Shown in pieces: positions 40,035 to 50,451 of a stretch of DNA of 64,000 bases. The position numbers and the translations under genes are program-made. How positions within the stretch are numbered: position 1 is the first letter of the stretch; every line of letters begins with the position of its first letter. The stretch spans positions 105,281 to 169,280 of the forward strand of contig DASXGW010000013.1 in the NCBI GenBank assembly GCA_036488875.1. Direction: 5' to 3'. The notes under the pieces are model-generated. The model saw only the letters and a list, made by a program, of their open reading frames with translations, did no database searches and was not told where the DNA came from. Origin of the DNA: Vulcanimicrobiaceae bacterium. GTDB taxonomy: Bacteria; Vulcanimicrobiota; Vulcanimicrobiia; Vulcanimicrobiales; Vulcanimicrobiaceae.

Positions 40035-40811
40035 GTGATGGCATCCACCATTCGCATGCGAGTGGTGGGTTCGAGTCCTTCGGTGCAGCGTCCGGGCCGG
40101 GCGTGCAGCAGCTATTTGTTGCGCTCGCGCGATGCGGCCGTGCTGCTGGACATCGGCAGCGGCGCGCTGGGAAATCTGCACCTGGCGATCGACTATCCGC
40201 AGCTCGATGCCGTGATCGTGTCGCACATGCACGCCGACCACTTTCTCGACATCATTCCCCTGCGGTACGGACTCAAGTACGGCCCGCTGCTTCGCGACGG
40301 CCGCATGCCGTTGTGGCTGCCTCCCGGCGGTTCGGACATTCTGCGCACGATCGCCAAGGCGTTCACAAACGAGGGTCCTAAGGACTTTCTCGACGAGGTC
40401 TTCGAGGTTCACGAGTACGACCCGTCGCAGCCGCTGGAAATCAATGACATGCGGTTAACGTTCCGGAGAACGCGTCACTACATCGACACGTTCGCCATTC
40501 GCGCCGATCGCGCAAACGCTTCCATCGTCTACTCCAGCGATACCGCGCCGTGCGACGCGGTCGAGGAACTCGCGCACGATTGCTCGCTGTTTATCTGTGA
40601 GGCGACGATCGGATTAGGGACCGAACAGGGCGTGCGCGGTCATCTTACCGCCGAGGAAGCCGGACAAATGGCAACGCGGGCGGGGGCGCACCGCCTGATC
40701 CTGACGCATTACGGCAGTACGTATGCGGCCGACGAACTCGAGGAAGCCGCGCAGATCGCCTTCAAGGGCCGCATCTCCATAGCCGACGACGGAGTCGAAC
40801 TCTCGCTGTAG
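40035..40811 (+). CDS. MBL-fold metallo-hydrolase (RNase Z/BN-like)
   Basis: VSHMHADHFLD (the HxHxDH motif). 258 aa. Confidence 0.8.
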   Translation: MMASTIRMRVVGSSPSVQRPGRACSSYLLRSRDAAVLLDIGSGALGNLHLAIDYPQLDAVIVSHMHADHFLDIIPLRYGLKYGPLLRDGRMPLWLPPGGSDILRTIAKAFTNEGPKDFLDEVFEVHEYDPSQPLEINDMRLTFRRTRHYIDTFAIRADRANASIVYSSDTAPCDAVEELAHDCSLFICEATIGLGTEQGVRGHLTAEEAGQMATRAGAHRLILTHYGSTYAADELEEAAQIAFKGRISIADDGVELSL

Positions 40812-40913
40812 AAGGGCTGATTTAGTCCAGCTCGTCGTCGGCTCGGGTCTCGTGTACCACAGTACACTTCGACCACTCGCCTCCTAGATCTGAACTAAAT
40901 CAGCCCTTCTACA
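40807..40913. repeat. 107-bp element bounded by a perfect 20-bp inverted repeat (TGTAGAAGGGCTGATTTAGT / ACTAAATCAGCCCTTCTACA) with an inner 6-bp hairpin
   Basis: The arms at 40807..40826 and 40894..40913 are exact reverse complements. The 67-nt spacer contains GTGTAC-caca-GTACAC (40852..40867). The element fills the gap between convergent genes, and the left arm contains the TAG stop at 40809..40811. It is locally AT-richer than its surroundings. Confidence 0.8.
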
Positions 40914-40916
40914 TTT

Positions 40917-41930
40917 TTACAGAATGCGGGCTCCCACGCACGCGGACAGTGCGTGCAGTTGGTGGATTGCCGCCGCTTGCAGCATCCTCACGACATTGCC
41001 TTCGTATCTCTGCAGCGCCGAGAGAATGTCGAGAAAACGGCGTCGATTGTAGAAAGCAATGCCATCGAAGACCTCATCGGCTTGCGAGATCGTCAGCTCC
41101 GCGCTCAAGAGCTTGCGAAAGACGGCGCGGGGTACGTCCATGGCGGTCGAGTCGCCCAGCATCACGTTGGTGAGCGTGACGATGTCGCCGTCGTCCTCGC
41201 GTCGCGGATAGCGAATGCCGTCGACCATCCGAACTGCGGCGGCATCGCGGTCGATGACCAGCCGTTTGTTGGCGTAGATGTCGACGGTGATCGCCAAGCT
41301 GTACCCGTACGGTGACCGATGCGCGAATCCGTAATGGAGTGCGACGGCCCACGCGTCGCGGACGTTGTAGCGCGCGAAGACTTCGGCCTCGAACGTTCCC
41401 GCCACCGTAACTCCGTCATCGGTTGCGTAGTCGCATCCGGTGGGCGAGTGGTTGACCAGTTCGAGTAACGGAGCGATATGCGGCTTGCCTCTGAAATAGA
41501 CGTCGCGCGTTTCGATATAGTTCTTGAGACACGCCTCGATCGTCGGGGCCTCGAATCGACTCTCCGGGTTGCCTACCGCGCCCATCGTGCAGATCCGGCG
41601 CTTGATCTCGTCGGGAAGTTCGTACCAGCCGGTCTGCTGCGCAGCGATCTCCTCGAAGAGACCGGCGCTCCATCCGAAGTGACGCTGATACGTCTCGAAG
41701 AACGCGCGTTCGCGGGCGCCGATTTTGCCGTGCGCGTTGACCGTCAGGCGGCCGTCGCGTACTTCGACGTCACTGATGGGAACCAGCAGATTGGGCGGGA
41801 CGTGAACGATCGCCGGTTTGGCCGGATCGAGAACGAGAACGCCGCGACCCGTTGCGCCTTCACCGATGCGGGCGTTTTCAAAAACCCCGCCCAGCGAGCG
41901 AAACTCAGCGAGCAGTTCTTCCGGGTTCAA
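40917..41930 (-). CDS. SET-domain-like protein (Rubisco-LSMT-type lysine methyltransferase fold)
   Basis: APLLELVNHS and EVFARYNVRDAWAVALHYGF resemble the NH(S) and YGF blocks of LSMT-type SET domains (recalled from memory). The ORF-track start at 42014 overlaps the pyrE-like gene by 88 nt. In-frame TTG 41930 gives a TTGA overlap. Confidence 0.6.
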   Translation of the reverse strand: MNPEELLAEFRSLGGVFENARIGEGATGRGVLVLDPAKPAIVHVPPNLLVPISDVEVRDGRLTVNAHGKIGARERAFFETYQRHFGWSAGLFEEIAAQQTGWYELPDEIKRRICTMGAVGNPESRFEAPTIEACLKNYIETRDVYFRGKPHIAPLLELVNHSPTGCDYATDDGVTVAGTFEAEVFARYNVRDAWAVALHYGFAHRSPYGYSLAITVDIYANKRLVIDRDAAAVRMVDGIRYPRREDDGDIVTLTNVMLGDSTAMDVPRAVFRKLLSAELTISQADEVFDGIAFYNRRRFLDILSALQRYEGNVVRMLQAAAIHQLHALSACVGARIL

Positions 41931-42496
41931 TTCTCCATGCGCGTCTCGGGACGCGGCAGCGAGAAGTGGATCAAAGCCCGCACCGGTGCCAATCCGCGAC
42001 TGACGACCGCGCACGGCGTGACGTGCAGCCCCAACTCTTCCAGACGCGCCGTCGCCGTCATCAGCTCGCGTCCGTTCGTGACGACGTCCTCCAGCAGCAG
42101 CACGGATTGCCCGTTCTCGTAGGGTCCCTCGACGTACTCGTTGGCGAACGCACCGTAGCCTTTCGGCTTCTTGCGCACCGCGATCATCGGAATCCCCGAC
42201 ATTTGTGAAACGGCGGTGGCGATCACCACGCCGCCCAGTTCCGTTCCGCCGATCAAATGGGGGTTGACCTCGGCGATGAGCGGCGTGAAGAGGCGCGCGA
42301 TTCGCCGCAAGACGTTGGGGTCGGAGAACAGGCTGAACTTGTCGATGTAGTAGTCGCTGCGCATCCCGCCCGCCAGAACGTAATCGCCGCGCGTGAGAGC
42401 GCGCTCGACGATAATCTTACGCAGCCAGACGAGTTCGGGCAGCGGACCGGTAGGACGATCGGGCTTCCCTAGATGCTCCATTGCCACGCGTTCCAC
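41927..42496 (-). CDS. pyrE: Orotate phosphoribosyltransferase-like type I PRTase
   Basis: PRPP-binding block VLLLEDVVTNGRE and IGGTELGGVVIA. About 185 aa. Alternative start ATG 42481. Confidence 0.75.
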   Translation of the reverse strand: MERVAMEHLGKPDRPTGPLPELVWLRKIIVERALTRGDYVLAGGMRSDYYIDKFSLFSDPNVLRRIARLFTPLIAEVNPHLIGGTELGGVVIATAVSQMSGIPMIAVRKKPKGYGAFANEYVEGPYENGQSVLLLEDVVTNGRELMTATARLEELGLHVTPCAVVSRGLAPVRALIHFSLPRPETRMEN

Positions 42497-44094
42497 GACT
42501 CTAGCACCGGGTTAGGATCGAAGCCCTTGAAGTCGATGCTGATCGGCTCCATCTGCCGCGTCCACCAGAAATAGATGTACGGATTGTCGCGCGCCACCAG
42601 CTGCTCGATCGTGCCGTACGCGTCCTTACGCTGCGCCTGGCCGTATTCGTTGAGTGCGCCCGTCTGCGCGCGCTGCATGTCTTGGTTGCAGTATCGCGAG
42701 TAGTTGTAGCCTCCGGGCGGCACGTTTTCGCACATCATCTGCGAGCTGTCGTCCGGATCGATTCCGGCATACCAGCCGGCCCACGATAAATCGAACTTGC
42801 CGAGCTGCAGGATGCCGCCCATTCCGGCCGGCGCGAAGAGTTGATCGCCCGGATAGTACTTGATCTCCATCTGGATGCCGACTTGGCGCAGCATTTGCTG
42901 GAGTTCGACGACGCCTTGACGCCGCGTCGCATTGGAGTTGTTCGAAACCGTAACGAGAATGAGCGGCTGACCGTCCTTGCGCACGATGCCGTCGGGGCCC
43001 GGAATCCAGCCGTCGCCGCGAAGCAGATCGCGCGCTTTTTGCGGATCGTGCGGAGCCGACTTCACCGACGGGTCGAAAGCCCACATCCAGTCCGGAATGT
43101 CCCCGGTCGCAACCTTCATCTGACCGTGCGTGAGCGTTTGAACGAGCTGATCTTTGTCGATCGCATAGGCGATCGCCTGACGCACGACCGGATCGCTCAC
43201 GTTAGGGCGCGACGTGTTGACCGTAAGATATTCGTAACCGTTGACGTTCACCCACACGAGCTTGATGTCCGCGACCGATTTGAGCGCCGGATACGTATTG
43301 GGTGAAGCTTGGAACATGTAGTCCACGGCGTGCGTCTTGAGCAAATTCACCGACGTATTCTCGTCTGGAATAATCTTGATCTCGATCCGGCGAAGCGCCG
43401 GAGTGCCCATGAAGAAATTGTCGTTACGCACCAGCGAGATATGATCGCCGTGCGACCACTCCGCGAAACGGAACGGCCCGTCGCTGACGCTGGGCTCGTT
43501 GTTGAATGGAATTTGATTGATGTCGGGATACTTCGAGAGCACGTGCGCGGGCGCCACGGGATACGGCTGGTCGCTCATGGCGAAGAAGGTGTTGACGAAC
43601 GGGGAGAAGCGCTGCTTGAGGTGTACGACCGCCGTATATTTGTCCGGCGTATCGATGCTCTTGACGAAGTCGTAGCCGTGGCGCGAGACGACGTTGTTGG
43701 CCGGATTCATGATCGCTTGCCACGACCACTTGACGTCCGTGGACGTCACCGGTACGCCGTCGCTCCACTTGGCGTCTTTGCGCAGGTGATAGGTAATCGT
43801 CAACCCGTCGGAGCTGATGCCGCCGTTGTCTTGCGACGGTACCACGAGCGCGAGGGCCGGAACGGGATTGCCTTTATCGTCCGCCCATAAGAGCGGTTCG
43901 TCCATGAGGAAGTCGATGAAACCGTCGGTCGTGTTCGAGTTGAGAAGCGGGTTGAGATTCTTAACGTCTTGCTGTATGGCAATTCGCAAGATCCCCGGAA
44001 CCGTGCCTGGAAGACGGCCTCCGCCGCCGTTGCCCACGCGACTGCAGGCAGCCAGCACGGCGAGAGCCAGCGCGCACGGTAAGGCGCGCTTCAT
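42469..44094 (-). CDS. ABC transporter substrate-binding lipoprotein, family 5 (peptide/nickel type)
   Basis: Start reset to ATG 44094 (ATGA overlap with the EF-G stop), giving MKRALPCALALAVLAACS (lipobox). 541 aa with family-5 SBP-like composition. The ORF-track extension is Arg-rich and overlaps the EF-G gene. Confidence 0.8.
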   Translation of the reverse strand: MKRALPCALALAVLAACSRVGNGGGGRLPGTVPGILRIAIQQDVKNLNPLLNSNTTDGFIDFLMDEPLLWADDKGNPVPALALVVPSQDNGGISSDGLTITYHLRKDAKWSDGVPVTSTDVKWSWQAIMNPANNVVSRHGYDFVKSIDTPDKYTAVVHLKQRFSPFVNTFFAMSDQPYPVAPAHVLSKYPDINQIPFNNEPSVSDGPFRFAEWSHGDHISLVRNDNFFMGTPALRRIEIKIIPDENTSVNLLKTHAVDYMFQASPNTYPALKSVADIKLVWVNVNGYEYLTVNTSRPNVSDPVVRQAIAYAIDKDQLVQTLTHGQMKVATGDIPDWMWAFDPSVKSAPHDPQKARDLLRGDGWIPGPDGIVRKDGQPLILVTVSNNSNATRRQGVVELQQMLRQVGIQMEIKYYPGDQLFAPAGMGGILQLGKFDLSWAGWYAGIDPDDSSQMMCENVPPGGYNYSRYCNQDMQRAQTGALNEYGQAQRKDAYGTIEQLVARDNPYIYFWWTRQMEPISIDFKGFDPNPVLESWNAWQWSI

Positions 44095-46127
44095 ACGGCC
44101 GCCTTTGGCGCTACGCGATTTCCGGGAACCGGATCGTAGCGCTCGTGACGCCATGAGTAGGTGCCCAGCCCCTGCGTCGCGGTGCGCAGCTCGGTGATGT
44201 AGCGCGCAAGCTCCACTTGCGGAACGTACGCTTCGACGACGTCGTATCCGCTGCGGTCGCTCGGATTCATACCGAGAATCTGTCCGCGCTTTCCGGTAAG
44301 CTGCGCAATGACGGTGGATGTATAGGTCGTCGGCACGGTGACCTGCACGTGCACGATAGGTTCGAGCACGACGGGATTGCACTTCGGCAGCGCTTCGCGC
44401 ACGCCCATCCCGGCCGCCGTCTTGAACGACTGCTCGCTGGAATCGACGTCGTGATACTGCCCGTCGAAGAGGACGACGTGCAAGTCGGTCACCGGATAAC
44501 CGCTGCTCCCATGAATAAGGGCTTCGCGCACCCCTTTTTCAACGGCTGGAATGAACTGCCGCGGAACGACGCCGCCGACGATCTTCTGTTCGAAGGTAAC
44601 GCCCGATCCGCGTTCGCGCGGCTCGAAGCGCAGCCAAACGTCGCCGAACTGTCCGTGTCCGCCGGTCTGATGTTTGTACCGAGAGTGAATCTCCGCACCG
44701 TTGGCGATCGTCTCGACGTAGGGAATCGTCGGCGGGGCTACGTCGACTTCCACCTTATATTTGCGCGCCAGCCGCTCGACGGCCATCGAGACGTGCTGCT
44801 CGCCGCGGCCGAGCAGCAGCAACTCGTGCGTGACGTCGGCGCGATCTAAACGCAGCGCCGGATCTTCGTCGACGATGCGTGCGAGCATCTGCGAGATCTT
44901 TGCTTCGTCGATGCGCTCCTTGGGCTTGATCGCGACGCCAAACACCGGTTCGGCAACCGCGACACGCGGCAGCAGCACCTTTTGCCCGTTCGACGTAAGC
45001 GTATCGCCGGTCGATACCGACTCGAGACGGCCGAACGCGACGATCGCACCGGGGCCGGCTTCCGGAATGGCTTCTTGCTTCTTGCCCTGCAGGCGGTAGA
45101 GTCCGCCGAGCCGCACTTTCTCGCCGTCCTTGCTGACGTTGGTCAGCGTCGCGTCAGATTTCACCGTGCCGCTGAGAATGCGCGCGACCGATACCTTGCC
45201 GCTCTGCGGATGAATCGACGTCTTGATGACGCGCGCGATCGCCGGACCCGAGGAATCGGGTTGAATCGGGCGGCCTTCGGCATCGACGTGCGGAGCGTCG
45301 GCCGGCGACGGGAACCATTTCTCTATCGCCCTCACTAATGCGGCGACGCCGGCGCCGGAGACGCCGGCTCCGACGAGCACCGGGACGATCTGATCGTGCG
45401 AGCACTCGCTGCACAGATCGCGCTCGACCTCGTCCATCGGCGGATCGATCCCCTCCAGAAGCTCTTCCATCAAATGGTCGTCGAAGTCGGCCATCGCTTC
45501 GAGCAGCTCGCCGCGGGCGCGCTGTACTTGGTCTTGGAGATCGCCGGGAATCGCGTCTTCGCGTTCCTTGTCTCCCTCAAACGTGCGGCCTTTGATCTCC
45601 GCGAGATCGACGTAACCGCGGAACTGTTCGGCGTTGCCGATCGGCCACTGTTCGGCGACGACGTGACGGCCGTAGGCTTCTTGTAATGCGGCGAGCGTTC
45701 CGGCGAAGTCGGCGCCGGGACGATCCATCTTGTTGATGACGAACAAGTGCGGCATCTTCGTCGACTCGAGGAGATCCACGATACCCTGCGTGTGCACGAC
45801 CCTGCCGGGATCGGCTTCGACGACGACGACCGCGGCATCGACGCCGGCGAGCGCGAGGCGCGTCTCTTCGAAGAAATCGATAAAGCCGGGACAGTCGACG
45901 ATGGTAATGTCGATTTCGTCCGCGGTCGTATGCGCGAACCCAACCGTCGTACTTTGGGCGTGGGCGGTGTCTTCGGGCTCGTGATCGGTGACGGTGGTAC
46001 CGTCGGCAATCGAGCCCCGGCGACCGATCGCGCCGGTATGTGCGAGGACCGCTTCAACGAGCGTCGTCTTTCCGCCGTGGTGCGGTCCGACGAATGCGAT
46101 ATTACGTAGGCGAGCGATGTCCGCCAT
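44091..46127 (-). CDS. Elongation factor G paralog (translational GTPase)
   Basis: G1 GPHHGGKTT, G3 DCPGFIDF, G4 NKMD, then EF-G domains II-V. 678 aa. GAGGAG sits upstream of the ATG. Confidence 0.85.
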   Translation of the reverse strand: MADIARLRNIAFVGPHHGGKTTLVEAVLAHTGAIGRRGSIADGTTVTDHEPEDTAHAQSTTVGFAHTTADEIDITIVDCPGFIDFFEETRLALAGVDAAVVVVEADPGRVVHTQGIVDLLESTKMPHLFVINKMDRPGADFAGTLAALQEAYGRHVVAEQWPIGNAEQFRGYVDLAEIKGRTFEGDKEREDAIPGDLQDQVQRARGELLEAMADFDDHLMEELLEGIDPPMDEVERDLCSECSHDQIVPVLVGAGVSGAGVAALVRAIEKWFPSPADAPHVDAEGRPIQPDSSGPAIARVIKTSIHPQSGKVSVARILSGTVKSDATLTNVSKDGEKVRLGGLYRLQGKKQEAIPEAGPGAIVAFGRLESVSTGDTLTSNGQKVLLPRVAVAEPVFGVAIKPKERIDEAKISQMLARIVDEDPALRLDRADVTHELLLLGRGEQHVSMAVERLARKYKVEVDVAPPTIPYVETIANGAEIHSRYKHQTGGHGQFGDVWLRFEPRERGSGVTFEQKIVGGVVPRQFIPAVEKGVREALIHGSSGYPVTDLHVVLFDGQYHDVDSSEQSFKTAAGMGVREALPKCNPVVLEPIVHVQVTVPTTYTSTVIAQLTGKRGQILGMNPSDRSGYDVVEAYVPQVELARYITELRTATQGLGTYSWRHERYDPVPGNRVAPKAAV

Positions 46128-46159
46128 CCCTACTCTCCTCTACGGTTGTTGGTGAAGCC

Positions 46160-47731
46160 TTAACGCCGTTTGGCAGACTTTTTCTTTGTCGCCGACCCTT
46201 TGCTCGATGGCTTCGTGACTTTTTTGACTTGCTTCTTAACCGCTGGTTTGGCGGCAAGTTTCTTGCTTTTCGCCGCGGATTTCACCGCAGTCTTTTTGGC
46301 GAGCGCCTTTTTTACCGCGGGCTTACGTGCGGGCGGCTTGGTCGCCGGCTTGCTCTTGGCGTTCTTGGAACGCGGCGCGGGCGCCGCCGCCTTCTTAGCG
46401 GCGGGCTTGACCGGTTTTGGCGGCTTTGCCGGCTTGACGGGTTTGGCGATCTTGGCGGCGGCCGGTTTGGGAGCGGCAGTTTTCTTGGAGGGCGGCGGCG
46501 CCTTCGCGGGAGCCGCTTTTGCGGGAACGCGGGCCGCTTTGGCCTTGCTGGATTGCGTCGAGGAATCCGGCGTGCGGCGCGACGTGCTCGGTGAACGCGT
46601 TGCGTCGGCTGCCCGCTTCTTCGGCCCCGCCTCGCGGGGCGAACGCGGCCCTTCGCGCCGGCCGCCCGCGGTTTCGGCCTCTTCGGGGAGTCCGAGCTCG
46701 GCGCGGCTGTAGCCGGTGATGCTGCTGCCCGGCGTGGAGGTCTCGCGCGTCTTAGCTTGCGCTTCCAGGTGCTCGCGCGTCGCGCGCAGAGCCACGCGCG
46801 CCAGCCGGCCGCCGACCGGGAAAACGATTTCGTTGATCTTCGCCTCGTCCAAGAGTCGCAGAATCGCGTCGAAGCCGTGGCCTTGATCCTTGGGACTGTG
46901 CGCGTCGGAGCCGATCGCGATGCCGACGCCGCGATCCTTGGCCTTACGAATCAACCGGGCGTTGGCTTCGAGGAACTGTCTTTTCAGATCTTCGGAACTG
47001 TCGCGATACAAGAAACGCGTGTTGATCTCGACGGCCGTTCCGCGAGCGTGACAGATCTCCAAGAGCCGGTCTTCGTAGCCTTCGAGCGCTTTCTGCGCGG
47101 GCCAATGACCGAATACGGCCGGACCGTAGAAGTGTCCGGCAACGTTACCGGGCAGCTTCTCGAGGTCGTCGAAAAGCTTCGTGGTGTAGAGTTGCCAGAT
47201 GCGATCGGCTCCCACGACGTCGTAGAGATGCGCGAACTCGTCGTTATCGAAAGCCCACGACCAGTCGGCGCCCTTTTCGGGATGATCGATGTTGATGAAG
47301 TGTACCGAGCGAATGACGCCGTCGGGCCGCATCGCGTCGACGATGTTTTGCGCGTCGGGTCTTGCACGCGGATCGTTGTCGACCTCGGCGCCGATCGAGA
47401 ACCGCATCCCGCGGCGCAAGCCGTCCGACACGACCGACGCATGCGCGACGTCCACGCCGGCCGTTTCGGCCGCTCCGTAGAGGTCGCCGGCATGCGCGAG
47501 CTTGAGCGCGCGCCGCACGGTGTTGACCGCTCCCGGGTCTTCGAACGTCAGGTAGTTGATGTGGTCGGCCACCATCAAAAAGCGCGGCGACCCACGACGG
47601 CAGGCGTGGTAGAACCACAGAAAGAGCATGCGTGGCGTGTACGCAATCGGACGCTCCTCGGCAAACGGGCGATGCTCGCCCTTTGCGTGTCCGTGGACGT
47701 CCGGTATGGCGGCGATGCGAGGGTCGCTCAG
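46160..47731 (-). CDS. PHP-domain (HisJ-type) phosphoesterase fused to a C-terminal histone-H1-like Lys/Ala/Pro-rich tail
   Basis: PHP metal-ligand blocks IPDVHGH, VADHINY, RSVHF, VAGHFYG, VEINT and GSDAH. These are followed by a Ser/Thr/Pro/Arg linker and a 128-aa tail (46163..46546). DVHGH precedes the first ATG (47629). The only upstream in-frame start-like codon is CTG 47731, which overlaps the pcp-like stop (CTGA), so the start is uncertain. Confidence 0.75.
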   Translation of the reverse strand: MSDPRIAAIPDVHGHAKGEHRPFAEERPIAYTPRMLFLWFYHACRRGSPRFLMVADHINYLTFEDPGAVNTVRRALKLAHAGDLYGAAETAGVDVAHASVVSDGLRRGMRFSIGAEVDNDPRARPDAQNIVDAMRPDGVIRSVHFINIDHPEKGADWSWAFDNDEFAHLYDVVGADRIWQLYTTKLFDDLEKLPGNVAGHFYGPAVFGHWPAQKALEGYEDRLLEICHARGTAVEINTRFLYRDSSEDLKRQFLEANARLIRKAKDRGVGIAIGSDAHSPKDQGHGFDAILRLLDEAKINEIVFPVGGRLARVALRATREHLEAQAKTRETSTPGSSITGYSRAELGLPEEAETAGGRREGPRSPREAGPKKRAADATRSPSTSRRTPDSSTQSSKAKAARVPAKAAPAKAPPPSKKTAAPKPAAAKIAKPVKPAKPPKPVKPAAKKAAAPAPRSKNAKSKPATKPPARKPAVKKALAKKTAVKSAAKSKKLAAKPAVKKQVKKVTKPSSKGSATKKKSAKRR

Positions 47732-48444
47732 CGTTCTACTTCCTTTACTCCGCGAGGGATCCACATCTGCCGGCGTCCTTTGTCTTTCGGCGAAGGCTCC
47801 GGCGGCTCGGCGGCGCGCTGATCGACCCACGGTATCACGGTCTCGATCAGCACCTCCACCCCCTTCTTCATGAGCTCGTAGCTCATCGAGGGGTTGGATT
47901 CCGACCCTGCGGCGATTGCCTGGGCAGGGAGAAACGGAAAGTGCAGGAGCCCAGCGATGACCGGAGTCGCGGAACTTTCGGTGAGGCCGAGCAGCTCGTA
48001 GAGCATCTGGTTGCCTAGGAACGTTCCGGCCGAGTTTGAGACGTAACCGGGTACGCCATTGGCGTGCCACGCCTCGACGATGCGTTCGAACGGGAGGTTC
48101 GAAAGACGCGCGTCGGCACCGCCTCGCGCGACGACGTCGCCCTTGCGCATAACGCCGACGTTATCGGGATGCTCGAAGTCGAGAACGTTGACCGCGACGC
48201 GCTCGAGCGCCATTGCGGTGCGTCCGCCGAACTGTCCCGTCGCGATGACGATGTCGGGATCTTCCTCGAGGAGCGTCTGCTCCATGCGCTCGCGCATCGT
48301 GCGTGTTTCGGCCGGTAAGATGCGGACGGAAAGAGGGCGGCCGGAAATCAGCCGCCCCTCCAAACTACGGGCAACCAGCTCGCTGGGATTGATTTTGTCG
48401 CCACCGTACGGCTCAAAACCGGTGATAAGGACGCGTTTAGGCAC
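47728..48444 (-). CDS. Pyroglutamyl-peptidase I (Pcp, C15) homolog lacking the catalytic cysteine
   Basis: Collinear with Bacillus Pcp as I recall it (VLITGFEPYGG, ALERVAVNV, SNSAGTFLGNQMLY, LLHFPF). Glu81 and His168 equivalents are present. Position 144 is Gly (GGC at 48015..48013) where Pcp has AGTFVCNH. Confidence 0.8.
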   Translation of the reverse strand: MPKRVLITGFEPYGGDKINPSELVARSLEGRLISGRPLSVRILPAETRTMRERMEQTLLEEDPDIVIATGQFGGRTAMALERVAVNVLDFEHPDNVGVMRKGDVVARGGADARLSNLPFERIVEAWHANGVPGYVSNSAGTFLGNQMLYELLGLTESSATPVIAGLLHFPFLPAQAIAAGSESNPSMSYELMKKGVEVLIETVIPWVDQRAAEPPEPSPKDKGRRQMWIPRGVKEVER

Positions 48445-48464
48445 CTTCGCTTAGGTTGGCGCCG

Positions 48465-49196
48465 TTATCCGCGATATCCCTCCATTTTGAGAAGCCGCGC
48501 CTTCATGTCGAGTCCGTAGAAGTAGTTGTGTAAGCCGCCCGACGAGTCCACCACGCGGTGACACGGAAAGAGCAGCGGCAACGGATTGCGCGCCATCACC
48601 CGCCCGACCGCCCGCGCGGCGCGGGGCTTGCCGATTTGCGTCGCGACCCAGCCGTACGATCGCACCTCGCCCGGGGGAATCGAAGCCGCAGCGCGCAGGG
48701 CCGCTTGTTCGAACGGGGTCAGGTCGCTGATGTCGACGACCTGATCGTCGAGTTTCCACGTTGCGAAGAATCGATCGAGCGTCGGCTGCAGCCACGACGG
48801 CGCTTCGCCGACGGTGACCGGACGGCGCAGCCGGGCTTCGATGCGCGAACGGACGTTTTCCAACGGCTCGCCCGTTTCGAAGCCGATATACGCAATCCGG
48901 TTCTCTTTGAACCCGACGTACAACCGTCCGATGGGCGTCGTTACCGATGACAGAACGACCGGAGATCGGTGTCTTCCTTTGAGCGTGAGAATGTGCTCGA
49001 CCACGCGTTTGGTGAGGTCGCATGAGGGCTCGGGCTGCGGGAGGCACGACAGGCAAAACGCGACGCCTTCGTATTGTTCGTAGAGTTCTTGACACGGAGG
49101 ACACGCTCGCAAGTGGCCGCTAACGGCTTCTCTGAGCGATTTGGTGCAGTCGCCACGAATCTCGTCCCATAACGACTCGACCTCACGACAGCGCAT
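48465..49196 (-). CDS. Anti-sigma factor: ZAS zinc-finger fused to a full O6-alkylguanine-DNA alkyltransferase (MGMT/Ogt) module
   Basis: ZAS signature H28-x3-C32-x2-C35 (GHLRACPPC). Ogt N-domain-like TPIGRLYVGFKENRIAYIGF. DNA-binding domain with NPLPLLFPC212HRVV. No transmembrane segment. The start lies 14 nt inside the end of the ECF sigma gene. Confidence 0.85.
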   Translation of the reverse strand: MRCREVESLWDEIRGDCTKSLREAVSGHLRACPPCQELYEQYEGVAFCLSCLPQPEPSCDLTKRVVEHILTLKGRHRSPVVLSSVTTPIGRLYVGFKENRIAYIGFETGEPLENVRSRIEARLRRPVTVGEAPSWLQPTLDRFFATWKLDDQVVDISDLTPFEQAALRAAASIPPGEVRSYGWVATQIGKPRAARAVGRVMARNPLPLLFPCHRVVDSSGGLHNYFYGLDMKARLLKMEGYRG

Positions 49197-49845
49197 GCAC
49201 GGAATCTCCTTCAGGGGTGAGTCGTCCGATCTGCGGACCCAAAATGCGTCGCAGAATTCGCACGGCGCGATGGACGTGAGACTTCACGGTGCCGATCGGC
49301 TGATGCAGAATCTCCGCAATTTCCGGGTGAGAGCGGCCTTCGATGAAACGTAACGTCGCGGCCGCGCGAAGATGGACGGGGAGCTGTAACAAAGCGCGCT
49401 CGACCAAAGCCACGTCGGCGTTCTGCTCGACGATGGTCTCCGGCTGCGGCGGTCCCTCGTTCGACTCGCGCAAGAGCGCGTCGGGATCGGCCAGTGCGTC
49501 GAGTGCGACGTTGGAAGGCCGTTTGCTGCGGAGCCGGTTGCGCGTGACGTTGAGCGTGATCGTGTAGAGCCATGGCTGGAGGCGGAGCTCCCCGCGTTGC
49601 TCGGGCGACATTTTTCCGAGCGCGCGATAGGCCCGCACGAAGGCATCTTGGACGATCTCCTCCGCGTCCTCGCGGTTACCGGTCATGCGCAGGGCGAAAC
49701 CATACAGCCGTCGCTGATAGTCGTCGACGATCCGCTCGAAGTTCTCGATTCCGGCAGCCGGCTGCGGCTGGCCGGCCGCAACCCTTCCGGAGGGAACCGC
49801 AGATGGCACGAACACTCCCTGTCGGAGCGGTGCGAGCACACTCAT
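49183..49845 (-). CDS. ECF-type RNA polymerase sigma-70 factor
   Basis: Region 2 (YGFALRMTGNREDAEEIVQDAFVRAY, PWLYTITLN) and region 4 (SHPEIAEILHQPIGTVKSHVHRA). Start uncertain: ATG 49845 is preferred, and the ORF-track TTG 49923 is possible. Confidence 0.85.
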   Translation of the reverse strand: MSVLAPLRQGVFVPSAVPSGRVAAGQPQPAAGIENFERIVDDYQRRLYGFALRMTGNREDAEEIVQDAFVRAYRALGKMSPEQRGELRLQPWLYTITLNVTRNRLRSKRPSNVALDALADPDALLRESNEGPPQPETIVEQNADVALVERALLQLPVHLRAAATLRFIEGRSHPEIAEILHQPIGTVKSHVHRAVRILRRILGPQIGRLTPEGDSVHALS

Positions 49846-50000
49846 TACGTGACTGGAGACCACCGCTGCCGCCTGGAAGGTTTCATACCCCCCGCAGGCC
49901 GCCTCCTTGCCTGTGGATAGCAAAAGGGGATTTTTTCGGGGCCTCCTAATGCCTCACCATGGCCCTCCTATTCCGGGCGATCCGGATCGACGTGAGAAAC

Positions 50001-50040
50001 AACCGCTTAATCGCACGACGATAAAGCGGTTTTTTGTTTC
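50001..50040 (+). terminator. Rho-independent-terminator-like hairpin in the 5' leader of gene 50059..50451
   Basis: AACCGCTT (50001..50008) pairs with AAGCGGTT (50024..50031) across a 15-nt loop and is followed by TTTTTGTTT. There is no plus-strand gene upstream to terminate. The hairpin ends about 15 nt before the GGGAG RBS. Confidence 0.45.
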
Positions 50041-50058
50041 CTTCAAAAGGGAGAACGA

Positions 50059-50451
50059 ATGCATCAAGCCATCGAACCGACGGAAATCGCGCTCGACGCG
50101 TACACGATGTGCAGCTTTTTACCCAACCTCGATTCGGCGCGCGCGATACCCTTGGTATTGATCGGTTACCGCCAAGGCGAGGATCCGTGGTTCGTTTGGC
50201 TCGTTCCAAAAGACGGAATCGATTCGACTGGTTTGACGGATGATCCGTATTACGCAAAAGTGCTGCGCGATCCGCACTCGTATTTTACGAGAAAGCTCAG
50301 CAAATATATCGAGGAGACGGGCTGCGTGAAGCGCGGAATTGAGATGCTGGTGGACTGCCACCAGAATCATCTCGCGTTCACCCCGCTTACCGAGCTGGGA
50401 GAAACGCCGTTCCGGCACCCGCTCCAGGTTGAGCTGGTAGGGGCGTTTTAA
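50059..50451 (+). CDS. Hypothetical protein (130 aa)
   Basis: ATG preceded by AAAAGGGAGAACGA. Ordinary protein-like composition. No motif recognised. Confidence 0.65.
   Translation: MHQAIEPTEIALDAYTMCSFLPNLDSARAIPLVLIGYRQGEDPWFVWLVPKDGIDSTGLTDDPYYAKVLRDPHSYFTRKLSKYIEETGCVKRGIEMLVDCHQNHLAFTPLTELGETPFRHPLQVELVGAF

What the first reader, a model, noticed from the sequence alone, without database searches (positions are those of the whole stretch)
46160..49923. Co-directional module: ECF sigma, ZAS-MGMT anti-sigma, Cys-less Pcp, PHP phosphoesterase with DNA-binding-type tail
Seen in sequence: four minus-strand genes are separated by -14, 20 and about -4 nt, so they are probably one transcript. 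Two of them carry DNA-related modules: the MGMT domain and the histone-H1-like tail on a PHP phosphoesterase. Established knowledge: PHP domains act as 3'-phosphoesterases/exonucleases in PolX and Pol III, and ECF sigmas usually autoregulate their own operon. Inference: the operon may be a self-contained DNA-alkylation or DNA-damage response unit. On the minus strand upstream of the sigma gene there is GGAAAC (50041..50036), then 15 nt, then CGTC (50020..50017). This resembles ECF-type AAC...CGT promoters, but the spacing is one to two nt shorter than the usual 16-17.
Basis: inference. Interest (0 to 1): 0.6.

Follow-up and report, generated by a model that had tools for sequence, protein, structure and literature searches.

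The report
Sigma switch with alkyl-repair inhibitor
A soil bacterium (Eremiobacterota) encodes a stress sigma factor next to an inhibitor fused to a single-use DNA-alkylation repair enzyme; this pairing is conserved across phyla and may sense alkylation damage, but the two downstream enzymes have no shown DNA-repair role.

Summary
The four genes exist as described. Spacing is -14 nt, +20 nt, and -4 nt (CTG start) or -37 nt (GTG start). They open an eight-gene co-directional array.

The solid core is two genes. One is an ECF sigma. The other is a soluble zinc anti-sigma domain (C3/H28/C32/C35) fused to a complete Ogt/MGMT with an intact PCHR site. A sigma of this kind sits directly upstream of an MGMT-type partner in all 56 Baltobacterales loci and 79 of 80 loci from other phyla.

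The conserved ECF-type promoter is TGAAAC-N16-GTGGTC (49885..49858), 12 nt before the true sigma start at ATG 49845.

Pcp is optional: present in 24 of 57 loci. It keeps Cys in basal lineages and has Gly in 16, still under purifying selection.

The PHP enzyme is of the histidinol-phosphatase (HisJ) type, not the polymerase type. It has the same order-restricted distribution as the anti-sigma and always follows it. Its Lys/Ala/Pro tail stands out in this genome. It is kept in genomes lacking a histidine-pathway marker.

No wider regulon was found. Sensing by consumption of the alkyltransferase is inferred, not shown. The sigma–MGMT association is catalogued (ECF122) but unstudied.

The parts
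49858..49885 (-). Conserved ECF-type promoter: -35 TGAAAC (49885..49880), 16 nt, -10 GTGGTC (49863..49858). It ends 12 nt before the sigma ATG, so the mRNA is near-leaderless with no Shine-Dalgarno.
   Evidence: TGAAAC lies at a fixed distance from the ATG in all 42 upstream regions compared, this window included. An equivalent motif, TGCAAC(C)-N16-17-GTGTT(C/T) plus a 9-12 nt leader, lies upstream of the sigma genes of other phyla.
49183..49845 (-). ECF sigma factor, 220 aa from ATG 49845. The ORF stays open up to TTG 49923.
   Evidence: Pfam Sigma70_r2 and r4_2. TIGR02937 scores 98 bits against a cut-off of 42.9; the best equivalog-like hit is SigW, below its cut-off. Homology in relatives begins at residue 23-27 of the ORF. 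The ATG is conserved in all 42 upstream regions compared.
48465..49196 (-). Soluble anti-sigma/alkyltransferase fusion, 243 aa. Residues 1-75 form a ZAS anti-sigma domain with zinc ligands C3, H28, C32, C35. Residues 80-240 form a complete Ogt/MGMT. The acceptor Cys212 is TGT at 48563..48561, within PCHRV.
   Evidence: PF01035 6e-29. The Ogt equivalog model aligns residues 85-241. A family profile hits RsiW at 9e-7 over residues 1-77, with weak RsrA, ChrR and RslA hits. AlphaFold pLDDT is 89, with four N-terminal helices plus an Ogt fold; TM is 0.75 to M. tuberculosis OGT and 0.77 to E. coli Ada-C. Zinc ligands and eight MGMT catalytic residues are conserved in 53-55 of 55 orthologs.
47728..48444 (-). 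Pyroglutamyl-peptidase I homolog with nucleophile Cys144 replaced by Gly (GGC 48015..48013). Glu81 and His168 are kept.
   Evidence: PF01470 9e-55. The gene is present in 24 of 57 loci: Cys in 7 basal lineages, Gly in 16, and one degraded copy. dN/dS in the Gly clade is about 0.17.
46160..47764 (-). HisJ-type PHP phosphoesterase. It starts at CTG 47731 (4-nt overlap with the Pcp stop) or GTG 47764. The catalytic domain spans about 380 aa.
   Evidence: NCBIfam HisJ-family hits are all below their cut-offs. The closest solved structure is T. thermophilus histidinol phosphatase 2yxo, E 4e-10. Conservation begins at ..LSDPRIAAIPDVHGH, and many orthologs have ATG at the position of the window's CTG. 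The -4 overlap holds in 17 of 22 loci. The public gene call of 489 aa starts after the HxH motif.
46163..46549 (-). Polycationic Lys/Ala/Pro tail of the PHP protein, about 129 aa with net charge +44.
   Evidence: Composition. It is the only ORF in the 3.7-Mb genome that passes a strict K/A/P window, and one of five under a relaxed one. The tail is kept in orthologs: median K/A/P is 0.72 over the last 100 aa in 52 loci. One ortholog cluster carries PF07382 and another a JGI name 'histone H1/5'.
44091..46127 (-). EF-G paralog (EF-G2-like), 32 nt downstream of PHP, with its own Shine-Dalgarno.
   Evidence: Pfam and NCBIfam EF-G domains. The canonical EF-G lies elsewhere in the genome at 35% identity. 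An EF-G2 match follows PHP in 45 of the 51 loci scored; in six SBP follows PHP directly.
42469..44094 (-). Family-5 solute-binding lipoprotein. Its start overlaps the EF-G2 stop (ATGA). It lies downstream of PHP in every locus that extends far enough.
   Evidence: PF00496 1e-81. Synteny.
50017..50041 (-). It is not conserved.
   Evidence: Present in 1 of 42 related upstream regions, namely this window. It lies 18 nt from the start of the divergent gene at 50059.

Best explanation
The core of this region is a self-activating two-gene switch.

Shown by comparison:
- An ECF sigma factor is made together with a soluble partner.
- The partner's N-terminal zinc anti-sigma domain is of the kind that holds a sigma inactive.
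- The rest of the partner is a complete, catalytically intact O6-alkylguanine-DNA alkyltransferase.
- The pair, its 14-nt overlap and its promoter (TGAAAC-N16-GTGGTC, near-leaderless) are conserved.
- The same sigma/MGMT-partner/promoter arrangement occurs in at least five other phyla. There the partner usually also carries Ada's methyl-phosphotriester zinc domain.

Inferred:
- Alkylation damage would therefore consume the inhibitor, free the sigma and re-express sigma and inhibitor from the sigma's own promoter.
- This would replenish the repair enzyme and reset the switch once damage is gone.

Weakly supported:
- The only conserved sigma-type promoter lies in front of the sigma.
- Downstream spacing is tight and conserved.
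- No convincing terminator follows.
- So transcription probably reads through into Pcp, PHP, EF-G2 and the binding protein.

Roles of the downstream genes:
- Pcp is a dispensable passenger.
- PHP is a histidinol-phosphatase-type enzyme with a polycationic tail. It is a lineage-specific companion of unknown role. A DNA-repair function for it is not shown.
For: The pair:
- Sigma and ZAS-MGMT are adjacent in 56 of 56 Baltobacterales loci, with a -14 overlap in 49 of 56.
- A homologous sigma lies immediately upstream of an MGMT(+Ada_Zn) gene in 79 of 80 loci from Chloroflexota, Actinomycetota, Dormibacterota, Acidobacteriota and Gemmatimonadota.

Anti-sigma domain:
- C3/H28/C32/C35 are conserved in 54-55 of 55 orthologs.
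- The family profile hits RsiW at 9e-7.
- zf-HC2 passes its cut-off in homologs.
- The model shows four N-terminal helices.

Active alkyltransferase:
- Y181, R195, N204, C212, H213, R214, Y225 and E239 are conserved in 53-55 of 55 orthologs.
- The fold matches M. tuberculosis OGT and E. coli Ada-C.
- The genome holds two to three other MGMT-like loci.

Promoter.

No second such promoter lies inside the 57 loci.

Alkylation theme in relatives:
- An Ada_Zn domain is present.
- An HhH-GPD glycosylase is adjacent in 4 loci. One of these also has a second MGMT-Ada_Zn ORF.

Spacing and terminators.

Literature: ECF122 has conserved neighbouring O6-methylguanine methyltransferases and an unknown mechanism (PMC8999054).
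Against: - No experiment or transcript data exist.
- Sigma binding, zinc binding and alkyl transfer are all inferred.
- Most relatives in other phyla lack the HxxxCxxC motif and keep only a short N-terminal segment. How their partner holds the sigma is unclear.
- The ZAS domain could be the true sensor instead (see the first rival).
- No regulon beyond the operon was found. The strict motif gives 20 hits against 14 in the control in this genome.
- Four of the five fixed-spacing hits lie inside ORFs.
- The best-looking extra target, cysK, keeps the motif only within the genus.
- A weak sigma-70-like site (9 of 12 matches) lies just upstream of Pcp. In some genera 300-1300 nt separate the anti-sigma gene from PHP. 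Independent transcription of the downstream genes is therefore possible.
Confidence: 0.5

Rival explanations
1. RsrA-like thiol switch. The zinc-thiolate anti-sigma domain itself is the sensor, responding to oxidants or soft electrophiles. The fused alkyltransferase is only a repair enzyme that is co-expressed and tethered. Its own alkylation state does not control the sigma.
For: - The full Cx24HxxxCxxC motif is conserved in 54-55 of 55 orthologs.
- A further CxxC (C48, C51) is kept in 43-45 of 55.
- The profile resembles RsiW, RsrA and ChrR.
- The promoter's -10 (GGT/GTT) and spacing resemble SigR/SigH-type promoters (own knowledge).
- Candidate motif-bearing genes in this genome are thiol or electrophile-type: cysK, an aldo-keto reductase and a zinc alcohol dehydrogenase.
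Against: - Most relatives in other phyla keep the sigma/MGMT pairing and promoter but lack the zinc motif. The conserved partner feature is therefore the alkyltransferase, not the ZAS.
- The cysK site is not conserved beyond the genus.
- Many ZAS proteins are not redox sensors (own knowledge).
Confidence: 0.22
2. All four genes form one dedicated DNA-damage unit. PHP acts on DNA through its histone-like tail, for example as a 3'-phosphoesterase. The Cys-less Pcp has a related non-catalytic role.
For: - PHP has the same distribution as ZAS-MGMT: 46 of 46 genomes of the two Baltobacterales families and 0 of 75 elsewhere in the phylum.
- PHP follows ZAS-MGMT in every one of the 56 related loci and in this window.
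- The Pcp stop and PHP start overlap by 4 nt in 17 of 22 loci.
- The PHP tail stands out in the genome and is conserved.
- PHP is kept in 26 of 38 genomes that lack imidazoleglycerol-phosphate dehydratase (IGPD), so histidine synthesis does not explain it there.
- The Gly form of Pcp is under purifying selection.
Against: - The PHP domain is of the histidinol-phosphatase type. A 47%-identical tail-less paralog lies inside a his operon.
- No PHP or Pcp lies next to the pair in 80 loci of other phyla.
- Pcp is absent from 33 of 57 loci and carries a normal Cys in basal lineages.
- The whole block, including an unrelated binding protein and upstream hypothetical genes, is syntenic across the order. 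Adjacency alone is therefore weak evidence.
- The tight co-directional array continues for four more unrelated genes.
Confidence: 0.15
3. Only the first two genes are a functional unit. Pcp, PHP, EF-G2 and the binding protein are unrelated genes, with PHP a histidinol-phosphate phosphatase. They sit downstream through conserved synteny in a compact genome and have promoters of their own.
For: - PHP shows histidinol-phosphatase homology.
- In ten genomes that do have the histidine-pathway marker IGPD, the tailed PHP is the only homolog of this type.
- A weak sigma-70-like site lies upstream of Pcp.
- Gaps of 300-1300 nt occur in some genera.
- There is no linkage in other phyla.
- Tight packing is general in this window.
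Against: - PHP is retained in 26 genomes that lack IGPD.
- Its distribution is identical to that of the anti-sigma.
- Spacing is short or overlapping in most loci, and no terminator is predicted.
- EF-G2 and ZAS-MGMT have Shine-Dalgarno sequences, whereas the sigma, the first gene, has none. This fits one transcript starting at the sigma (sequence inspection).
Confidence: 0.3

Closest known systems
ECF122 group of the ECF sigma classification (Casas-Pastor et al. 2021, as summarised in PMC8999054)
   Same: An ECF sigma has a conserved O6-methylguanine-DNA methyltransferase gene in its neighbourhood, and the regulatory mechanism is listed as unknown. Loci from Actinomycetota are among the relatives found here.
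   Different: - ECF122 is listed among sigmas without a cognate anti-sigma. Here the MGMT protein carries a recognisable zinc anti-sigma domain.
- Group membership of this sigma could not be tested, because no ECF-group models were on hand.
- The listed example is from Cellulomonas; this one is from Eremiobacterota.
ZAS anti-sigma / ECF sigma pairs (RsrA-SigR, RslA-SigL, ChrR-RpoE, cytoplasmic domain of RsiW-SigW)
   Same: - HxxxCxxC plus an upstream Cys.
- A helical N-terminal domain.
- A gene overlapping the 3' end of the sigma gene.
- A self-promoter with an AAC-type -35. TGAAAC is also the SigW -35 (own knowledge).
- The profile hits RsiW at 9e-7.
   Different: - The output side is a complete suicide DNA-repair enzyme, not a short tail, a cupin or a membrane anchor.
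- The protein is soluble.
- The proposed trigger is alkyl transfer, not disulfide formation or proteolysis.
E. coli Ada (adaptive response to alkylation)
   Same: A self-alkylating O6-alkylguanine transferase domain is built into a transcription regulator that controls its own gene. Relatives in other phyla also carry the N-Ada Cys4 zinc domain.
   Different: - There is no AraC-type DNA-binding domain.
- Control would work by releasing a sigma factor rather than by activating sigma-70 promoters.
- The Eremiobacterota form lacks the N-Ada zinc domain altogether.
HisJ-type histidinol-phosphate phosphatases of the PHP family (T. thermophilus 2yxo, L. lactis 4gc3)
   Same: The catalytic domain is homologous, E 4e-10 to 2yxo. 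The HxH and GSDAH motifs are present. A 47%-identical paralog lies between hisB and hisH in a related genome.
   Different: - It scores below the curated HisJ cut-offs.
- It carries a 129-aa polycationic tail.
- It sits next to the sigma/anti-sigma pair.
- It is kept in genomes without IGPD.
Pyroglutamyl-peptidase I (peptidase family C15)
   Same: The protein matches over its full length at 9e-55, and Glu81 and His168 are kept.
   Different: The nucleophile Cys144 is Gly in this genome and in 15 of the related loci, so the known cysteine-peptidase chemistry is not possible as such.

Membership tests
ECF (group IV) sigma-70 factors | Regions 2 and 4 only, matching the ECF superfamily model | tested here: met
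   PF04542 1.8e-16 and PF08281 4.4e-14. TIGR02937 scores 98.2 bits against a cut-off of 42.9.
ECF122 group | Assignment by the ECF-group profile models | not testable with these tools
   No ECF-group models or supplementary tables were available.
ECF122 group | Conserved O6-methylguanine-DNA methyltransferase next to the sigma | tested here: met
   All 56 related Baltobacterales loci and this window, plus 79 of 80 distant loci.
ZAS (zinc-binding) class I anti-sigma factors | HxxxCxxC motif plus an upstream Cys/His ligand in an N-terminal helical domain | tested here: met
   C3, H28, C32 and C35 are conserved in 54-55 of 55 orthologs. The model has helices at 3-14, 19-31, 33-50 and 61-74. The profile hits RsiW at 9e-7. 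Pfam zf-HC2 is below its cut-off for this protein (19.7 against 22.2) but above it in homologs.
ZAS (zinc-binding) class I anti-sigma factors | Gene immediately downstream of, and coupled to, its ECF sigma | tested here: met
   A 14-nt overlap in 49 of 56 loci.
ZAS (zinc-binding) class I anti-sigma factors | Binds zinc and sequesters the sigma | not testable with these tools
   This needs biochemistry.
O6-alkylguanine-DNA alkyltransferase (Ogt/MGMT) | PCHR acceptor cysteine and the DNA-binding and flipping residues | tested here: met
   PCHRV is present. Y181, R195, N204, C212, H213, R214, Y225 and E239 are conserved in 53-55 of 55 orthologs. PF01035 6e-29.
O6-alkylguanine-DNA alkyltransferase (Ogt/MGMT) | Two-domain Ogt fold | tested here: met
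   Foldseek TM 0.74-0.77 to M. tuberculosis OGT and E. coli Ada-C, E about 1e-11. The Ogt model aligns residues 85-241.
E. coli-type Ada regulator | N-terminal Cys4 zinc methyl-phosphotriester domain | tested here: not met
   Absent from the window protein, which ends after the MGMT domain. Present at the C-terminus of relatives in other phyla.
E. coli-type Ada regulator | AraC-type helix-turn-helix | tested here: not met
   No such Pfam hit.
Pyroglutamyl-peptidase I (C15) | Glu-Cys-His catalytic triad | tested here: not met
   Cys144 is Gly; Glu81 and His168 are kept.
HisJ-family histidinol-phosphate phosphatase | Score above the curated family cut-off | tested here: not met
   TIGR01856 scores 55.7 against 90.2. 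PRK07328 scores 64.7 against 202.
HisJ-family histidinol-phosphate phosphatase | Functions within a histidine pathway | tested here: not met
   No IGPD (PF00475) in this genome or in 26 of the 38 genomes searched, 23 of them Baltobacterales that keep the gene; the marker was found in all 14 control genomes. No hisG, hisIE, hisH or hisB hits by tblastn. Completeness is 97.6%, so absence is likely but not certain.
PolX / Pol III-type PHP 3'-phosphoesterase or exonuclease | Closest relatives are polymerase-associated PHP domains | tested here: not met
   The only solved relatives found are histidinol phosphatases. All NCBIfam hits are HisJ-like.

The most novel reading that the evidence does not exclude
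In Baltobacterales the Ada-type zinc domain, which repairs methyl-phosphotriesters in relatives, is missing. A histidinol-phosphatase-derived PHP enzyme with a 129-residue polycationic tail has been recruited next to the sigma/anti-sigma pair instead. The boldest reading not excluded is that this enzyme works on the DNA backbone as a tethered, catalytic phosphoesterase. Possible substrates are 3'-blocked ends or alkyl-phosphotriesters. The operon would then be a three-part alkylation response: a suicide sensor and repair enzyme, a sigma factor, and a backbone-repair enzyme.
Probability: 0.08. Interest if true: 0.8.

Novelty: new variant of a known kind. Interest (0 to 1): 0.5.

Why it matters
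The classic bacterial response to DNA alkylation, Ada, uses a self-methylating protein as a transcription activator. Here the same suicide chemistry appears wired into a different regulatory logic: a sigma/anti-sigma switch in which the sensor would be consumed one molecule per lesion.

The pairing is widespread in soil phyla and catalogued, but untested. This locus provides what an experiment needs:
- a defined promoter;
- a true sigma start;
- clear mutational targets: Cys212 against the zinc ligands C3, H28, C32, C35.

The work also separates what is solid (two genes and a promoter) from what is only neighbourhood (Pcp, PHP). It flags an unusual histidinol-phosphatase relative with a histone-like tail that persists in genomes without a histidine pathway.

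Tried and rejected
1. It occurs in 1 of 42 related upstream regions, and some intergenic regions are too short to hold it.

2. Regulon search in the window's genome.
   - TGAAAC-N17-19-GGTY gives 20 hits against 14 in the reversed control.
   - Candidates with leaderless geometry were cysK, an aldo-keto reductase and recQ.
   - The cysK site is conserved only within the genus.
   - Of the five fixed-spacing hits, four lie inside ORFs. The exception is the sigma's own promoter; the aldo-keto reductase site overlaps only the last codons of the upstream ORF.
   - Across 25 genomes the motif is about 2.3 times as frequent as the control (roughly 140 against 60 by my tally). No recurrent target was identified.
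   - The regulon is therefore left undefined.

3. No second sigma-type promoter lies inside the 57 loci.

4. I tested whether the sigma/ZAS-MGMT/PHP trio was inserted as a unit into an older block. In the sister order, orthologs of EF-G2 and the upstream hypothetical gene lie 40-50 kb apart with other neighbours. The test was uninformative.

5. PHP as the housekeeping histidinol phosphatase is weakened by the absence of IGPD in most genomes that keep it. It is not excluded for the basal genera that have IGPD.

6. A terminator and sigma-70 promoter scan gave hits within chance.

8. The alignment of 17 distant homologs was too diverse for a locus scan. A 7-sequence alignment worked.

9. Foldseek on the whole model returned only alkyltransferases. 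It gave no independent structural match for the small N-terminal domain.

Full report
**Observation**

- The sigma (49183..49923) has Sigma70 regions 2 and 4 and matches the ECF superfamily model at 98 bits against a cut-off of 42.9.
- The next protein (48465..49196, 243 aa) has the MGMT DNA-binding domain at 6e-29. It aligns to an Ogt model over residues 85-241. It begins with MRC...H28LRAC32PPC35.
- The third (47728..48444) is a full-length pyroglutamyl-peptidase I homolog at 9e-55. Its active-site block reads GTFLGN, so Cys144 is Gly.
- The fourth ends at 46160. It is a HisJ-like PHP protein with a C-terminal tail that is 74% Lys/Ala/Pro with net charge +44.

The spacing is as stated: -14, +20, and -4 if PHP starts at CTG 47731, or -37 from GTG 47764.

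The organism belongs to Eremiobacterota. The closest contigs are named Baltobacteraceae.

**The real promoter and sigma start**

I aligned the sigma upstream regions of 41 related loci with that of this window. All 42 carry TGAAAC about 38-40 nt before a conserved ATG, which is 49845 in the window.

A G(G/T)T(C/T) element follows 16-18 nt after the hexamer. It ends about 12 nt before the ATG. There is no Shine-Dalgarno.

In the window this is TGAAAC 49885..49880 and GTGGTC 49863..49858.

Homology to other sigmas begins at residue 23-27 of the long ORF. The gene therefore starts at 49845 and the mRNA is near-leaderless.

Three relatives have just 77-86 nt between the divergent gene and the sigma start.

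**The sigma/anti-sigma pair across phyla**

A search of 1.8 billion representatives found full-length relatives at about 35% identity. They have the same ZAS-plus-MGMT layout. Most also have a C-terminal domain that Pfam calls Ada_Zn_binding.

A locus scan with seven of these returned 80 loci from Chloroflexota, Actinomycetota, Dormibacterota, Acidobacteriota, Gemmatimonadota and others.

- In 79 of the 80, a homolog of the window's sigma (E 1e-10 to 1e-45) lies immediately upstream, often with a 4-nt overlap. The exception sits at a contig end.
- Upstream of those sigmas is TGCAAC(C)-N16-17-GTGTT(C/T), followed 9-12 nt later by ATG. This is the same promoter architecture.
- Only five of the 80 partners keep HxxxCxxC. 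The rest have a short N-terminal segment.

A profile of the family matched these solved structures:

- RsiW at 9e-7 over residues 1-77;
- RsrA, ChrR and RslA weakly;
- alkyltransferases over residues 76-244;
- N-Ada at about 5e-10 over residues 256-305.

The AlphaFold model of the window protein has pLDDT 89. It shows four N-terminal helices and an Ogt fold, with TM about 0.75 to M. tuberculosis OGT and E. coli Ada-C.

In 55 Baltobacterales orthologs the four zinc ligands and eight alkyltransferase catalytic residues are essentially invariant.

Within Eremiobacterota the full-length fusion is confined to the window's family and its sister family.

The literature lists ECF122 as a sigma group with conserved neighbouring O6-methylguanine methyltransferases and unknown regulation (PMC8999054). 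I found no paper on an alkyltransferase anti-sigma.

**Mechanism**

Shown by comparison: the pair, the coupling, the intact active site and the self-promoter.

Inferred from established knowledge:

- Alkyltransferases of this family act once, and the alkylated protein is destabilised.
- ZAS domains sequester their sigma.

From these I infer that alkylation damage consumes the inhibitor and frees the sigma. Sigma and inhibitor are then re-made together, which resets the circuit.

The main rival is an RsrA-like thiol switch in the ZAS domain. It is weakened because most relatives keep the pairing without the zinc motif.

**Are Pcp and PHP part of it?**

Across 56 loci of the order the gene order is sigma, ZAS-MGMT, [Pcp], PHP, [EF-G2], binding protein.

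*Pcp*

- It is present in 24 of 57 loci.
- It has the normal Cys in seven basal lineages and Gly in 16. One copy is degraded.
- The Gly form has dN/dS of about 0.17, so it is still constrained.
- It is an optional gene that lost its nucleophile in one clade.

*PHP: evidence for a link*

- It always follows the pair.
- In 121 genomes of the phylum it occurs in exactly the two families that have ZAS-MGMT: 46 of 46 against 0 of 75.
- Its start overlaps the Pcp stop by 4 nt in 17 of 22 loci. Where Pcp is absent, the median gap to ZAS-MGMT is 92 nt.
- Its tail is the only segment in the genome that passes a strict K/A/P filter. Orthologs keep the tail.
- IGPD is absent from this genome and from 26 of the 38 genomes searched, 23 of them Baltobacterales that keep PHP; the marker was found in all 14 control genomes.

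*PHP: evidence against a link*

- The catalytic domain is of the histidinol-phosphatase type, E 4e-10 to 2yxo.
- A 47%-identical tail-less paralog lies between hisB and hisH in two relatives.
- None of the 80 distant loci has a PHP or Pcp neighbour. There the commonest downstream gene is an EamA transporter (37 loci). Four loci have an adjacent HhH-GPD glycosylase.
- The flanking binding protein and an upstream hypothetical gene are equally syntenic in the order.
- The tight co-directional array in the window runs on through eight genes to 40917.

The link of PHP to the switch is therefore suggestive but unproven. The polymerase-type PHP analogy is not supported.

**Regulon and transcription**

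- No second TGAAAC-type promoter occurs within the 57 loci.
- In the window's genome the motif is barely above the control, at 20 against 14.
- The cysK site is conserved only within the genus.
- Four of the five fixed-spacing hits lie inside ORFs.
- Across 25 genomes the motif is enriched about 2.3-fold without a recurrent target.
- Terminator and sigma-70 scans are at chance level. A 9-of-12 sigma-70-like site lies before Pcp.

**Verdict**

- The pair is a new variant (ZAS plus MGMT, without the Ada zinc domain, in Eremiobacterota) of a catalogued but unstudied sigma/alkyltransferase system.
- The promoter has been relocated.
- Pcp is a passenger.
- PHP is an intriguing companion of unknown role.

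Earlier notes from this scan describe the same kind of pair in many other genomes. I treat them as leads, not as evidence.

Noticed in passing
window 47629..47764: The public gene call for PHP (489 aa, identical to the window over 89% of the query) starts at ATG 47629 and cuts off the conserved PDVHGH metal motif. Orthologs show conservation from ..LSDPRI. Many have ATG where the window has CTG 47731, which is preceded by AAGGAAG at good Shine-Dalgarno distance. This points to a probable CTG start.
   Followed up: partly
L203 6120..7109 (G079) and G091:C22:104946-105824: Two related genomes carry a second, tail-less PHP paralog (47% identity) inside a complete-looking his operon (hisG, hisC, hisB, PHP, hisH, hisF, hisIE, hisD). 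The IGPD of that operon scores lower than the IGPD of other family members (about 161 bits against 184-196).
   Followed up: partly
whole genome G000 and 37 other Eremiobacterota genomes: IGPD (PF00475) is absent from 26 of 38 high-quality Eremiobacterota genomes, including single-contig ones. tblastn finds no hisG, hisIE, hisH or hisB in the window's genome. Histidine auxotrophy may be common in this family.
   Followed up: partly
G000 C6:329089..331279: A HisD homolog (37% identity to the G079 copy) overlaps a Cof-type HAD phosphatase gene and lies next to dnaE and the ftsQAZ genes, in a genome that otherwise seems to lack the histidine pathway.
   Followed up: no
L137..L163, 70 nt upstream of cysK orthologs: Many genera have GGTTAT-like hexamers 8-12 nt before the cysK ATG and no Shine-Dalgarno. 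Leaderless or near-leaderless mRNAs may be common in Baltobacteraceae.
   Followed up: no
L048 6890..8645: In one Chloroflexia locus the ZAS-MGMT-Ada_Zn gene is followed by a second MGMT-Ada_Zn coding region and then, overlapping its stop, an HhH-GPD (AlkA-like) glycosylase gene.
   Followed up: partly
L046, L057, L061, L065, L095, L116 (sigma upstream regions): The distant promoters are quasi-palindromic. TGCAACC ... GTGTTTCA reads as TGAAACAC ... GGTTGCA on the other strand, so motif scans hit both strands at the same site.
   Followed up: partly
window 49044..49055 (residues 48-51 of ZAS-MGMT): A second CxxC (C48, C51, in AFCLSCLP) follows the zinc motif. It is kept in 43-45 of 55 orthologs and may be an extra thiol or metal site.
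   Followed up: no
window 40917..49923: Eight co-directional minus-strand genes have no gap above 32 nt: sigma, ZAS-MGMT, Pcp, PHP, EF-G2, binding protein, a phosphoribosyltransferase-like gene and a SET-like gene. The array ends where a convergent gene and the inverted repeat at 40807..40913 lie.
   Followed up: no
window 50001..50031: An 8-bp hairpin (AACCGCTT ... AAGCGGTT) flanked by A/T runs lies between the sigma promoter region and the divergent gene at 50059.
   Followed up: no
protein P0150 (representative library): A 425-aa entry joins the C-terminal part of a sigma of this family to a garbled ZAS-MGMT sequence. It is probably a frameshifted gene call rather than a true fusion.
   Followed up: no
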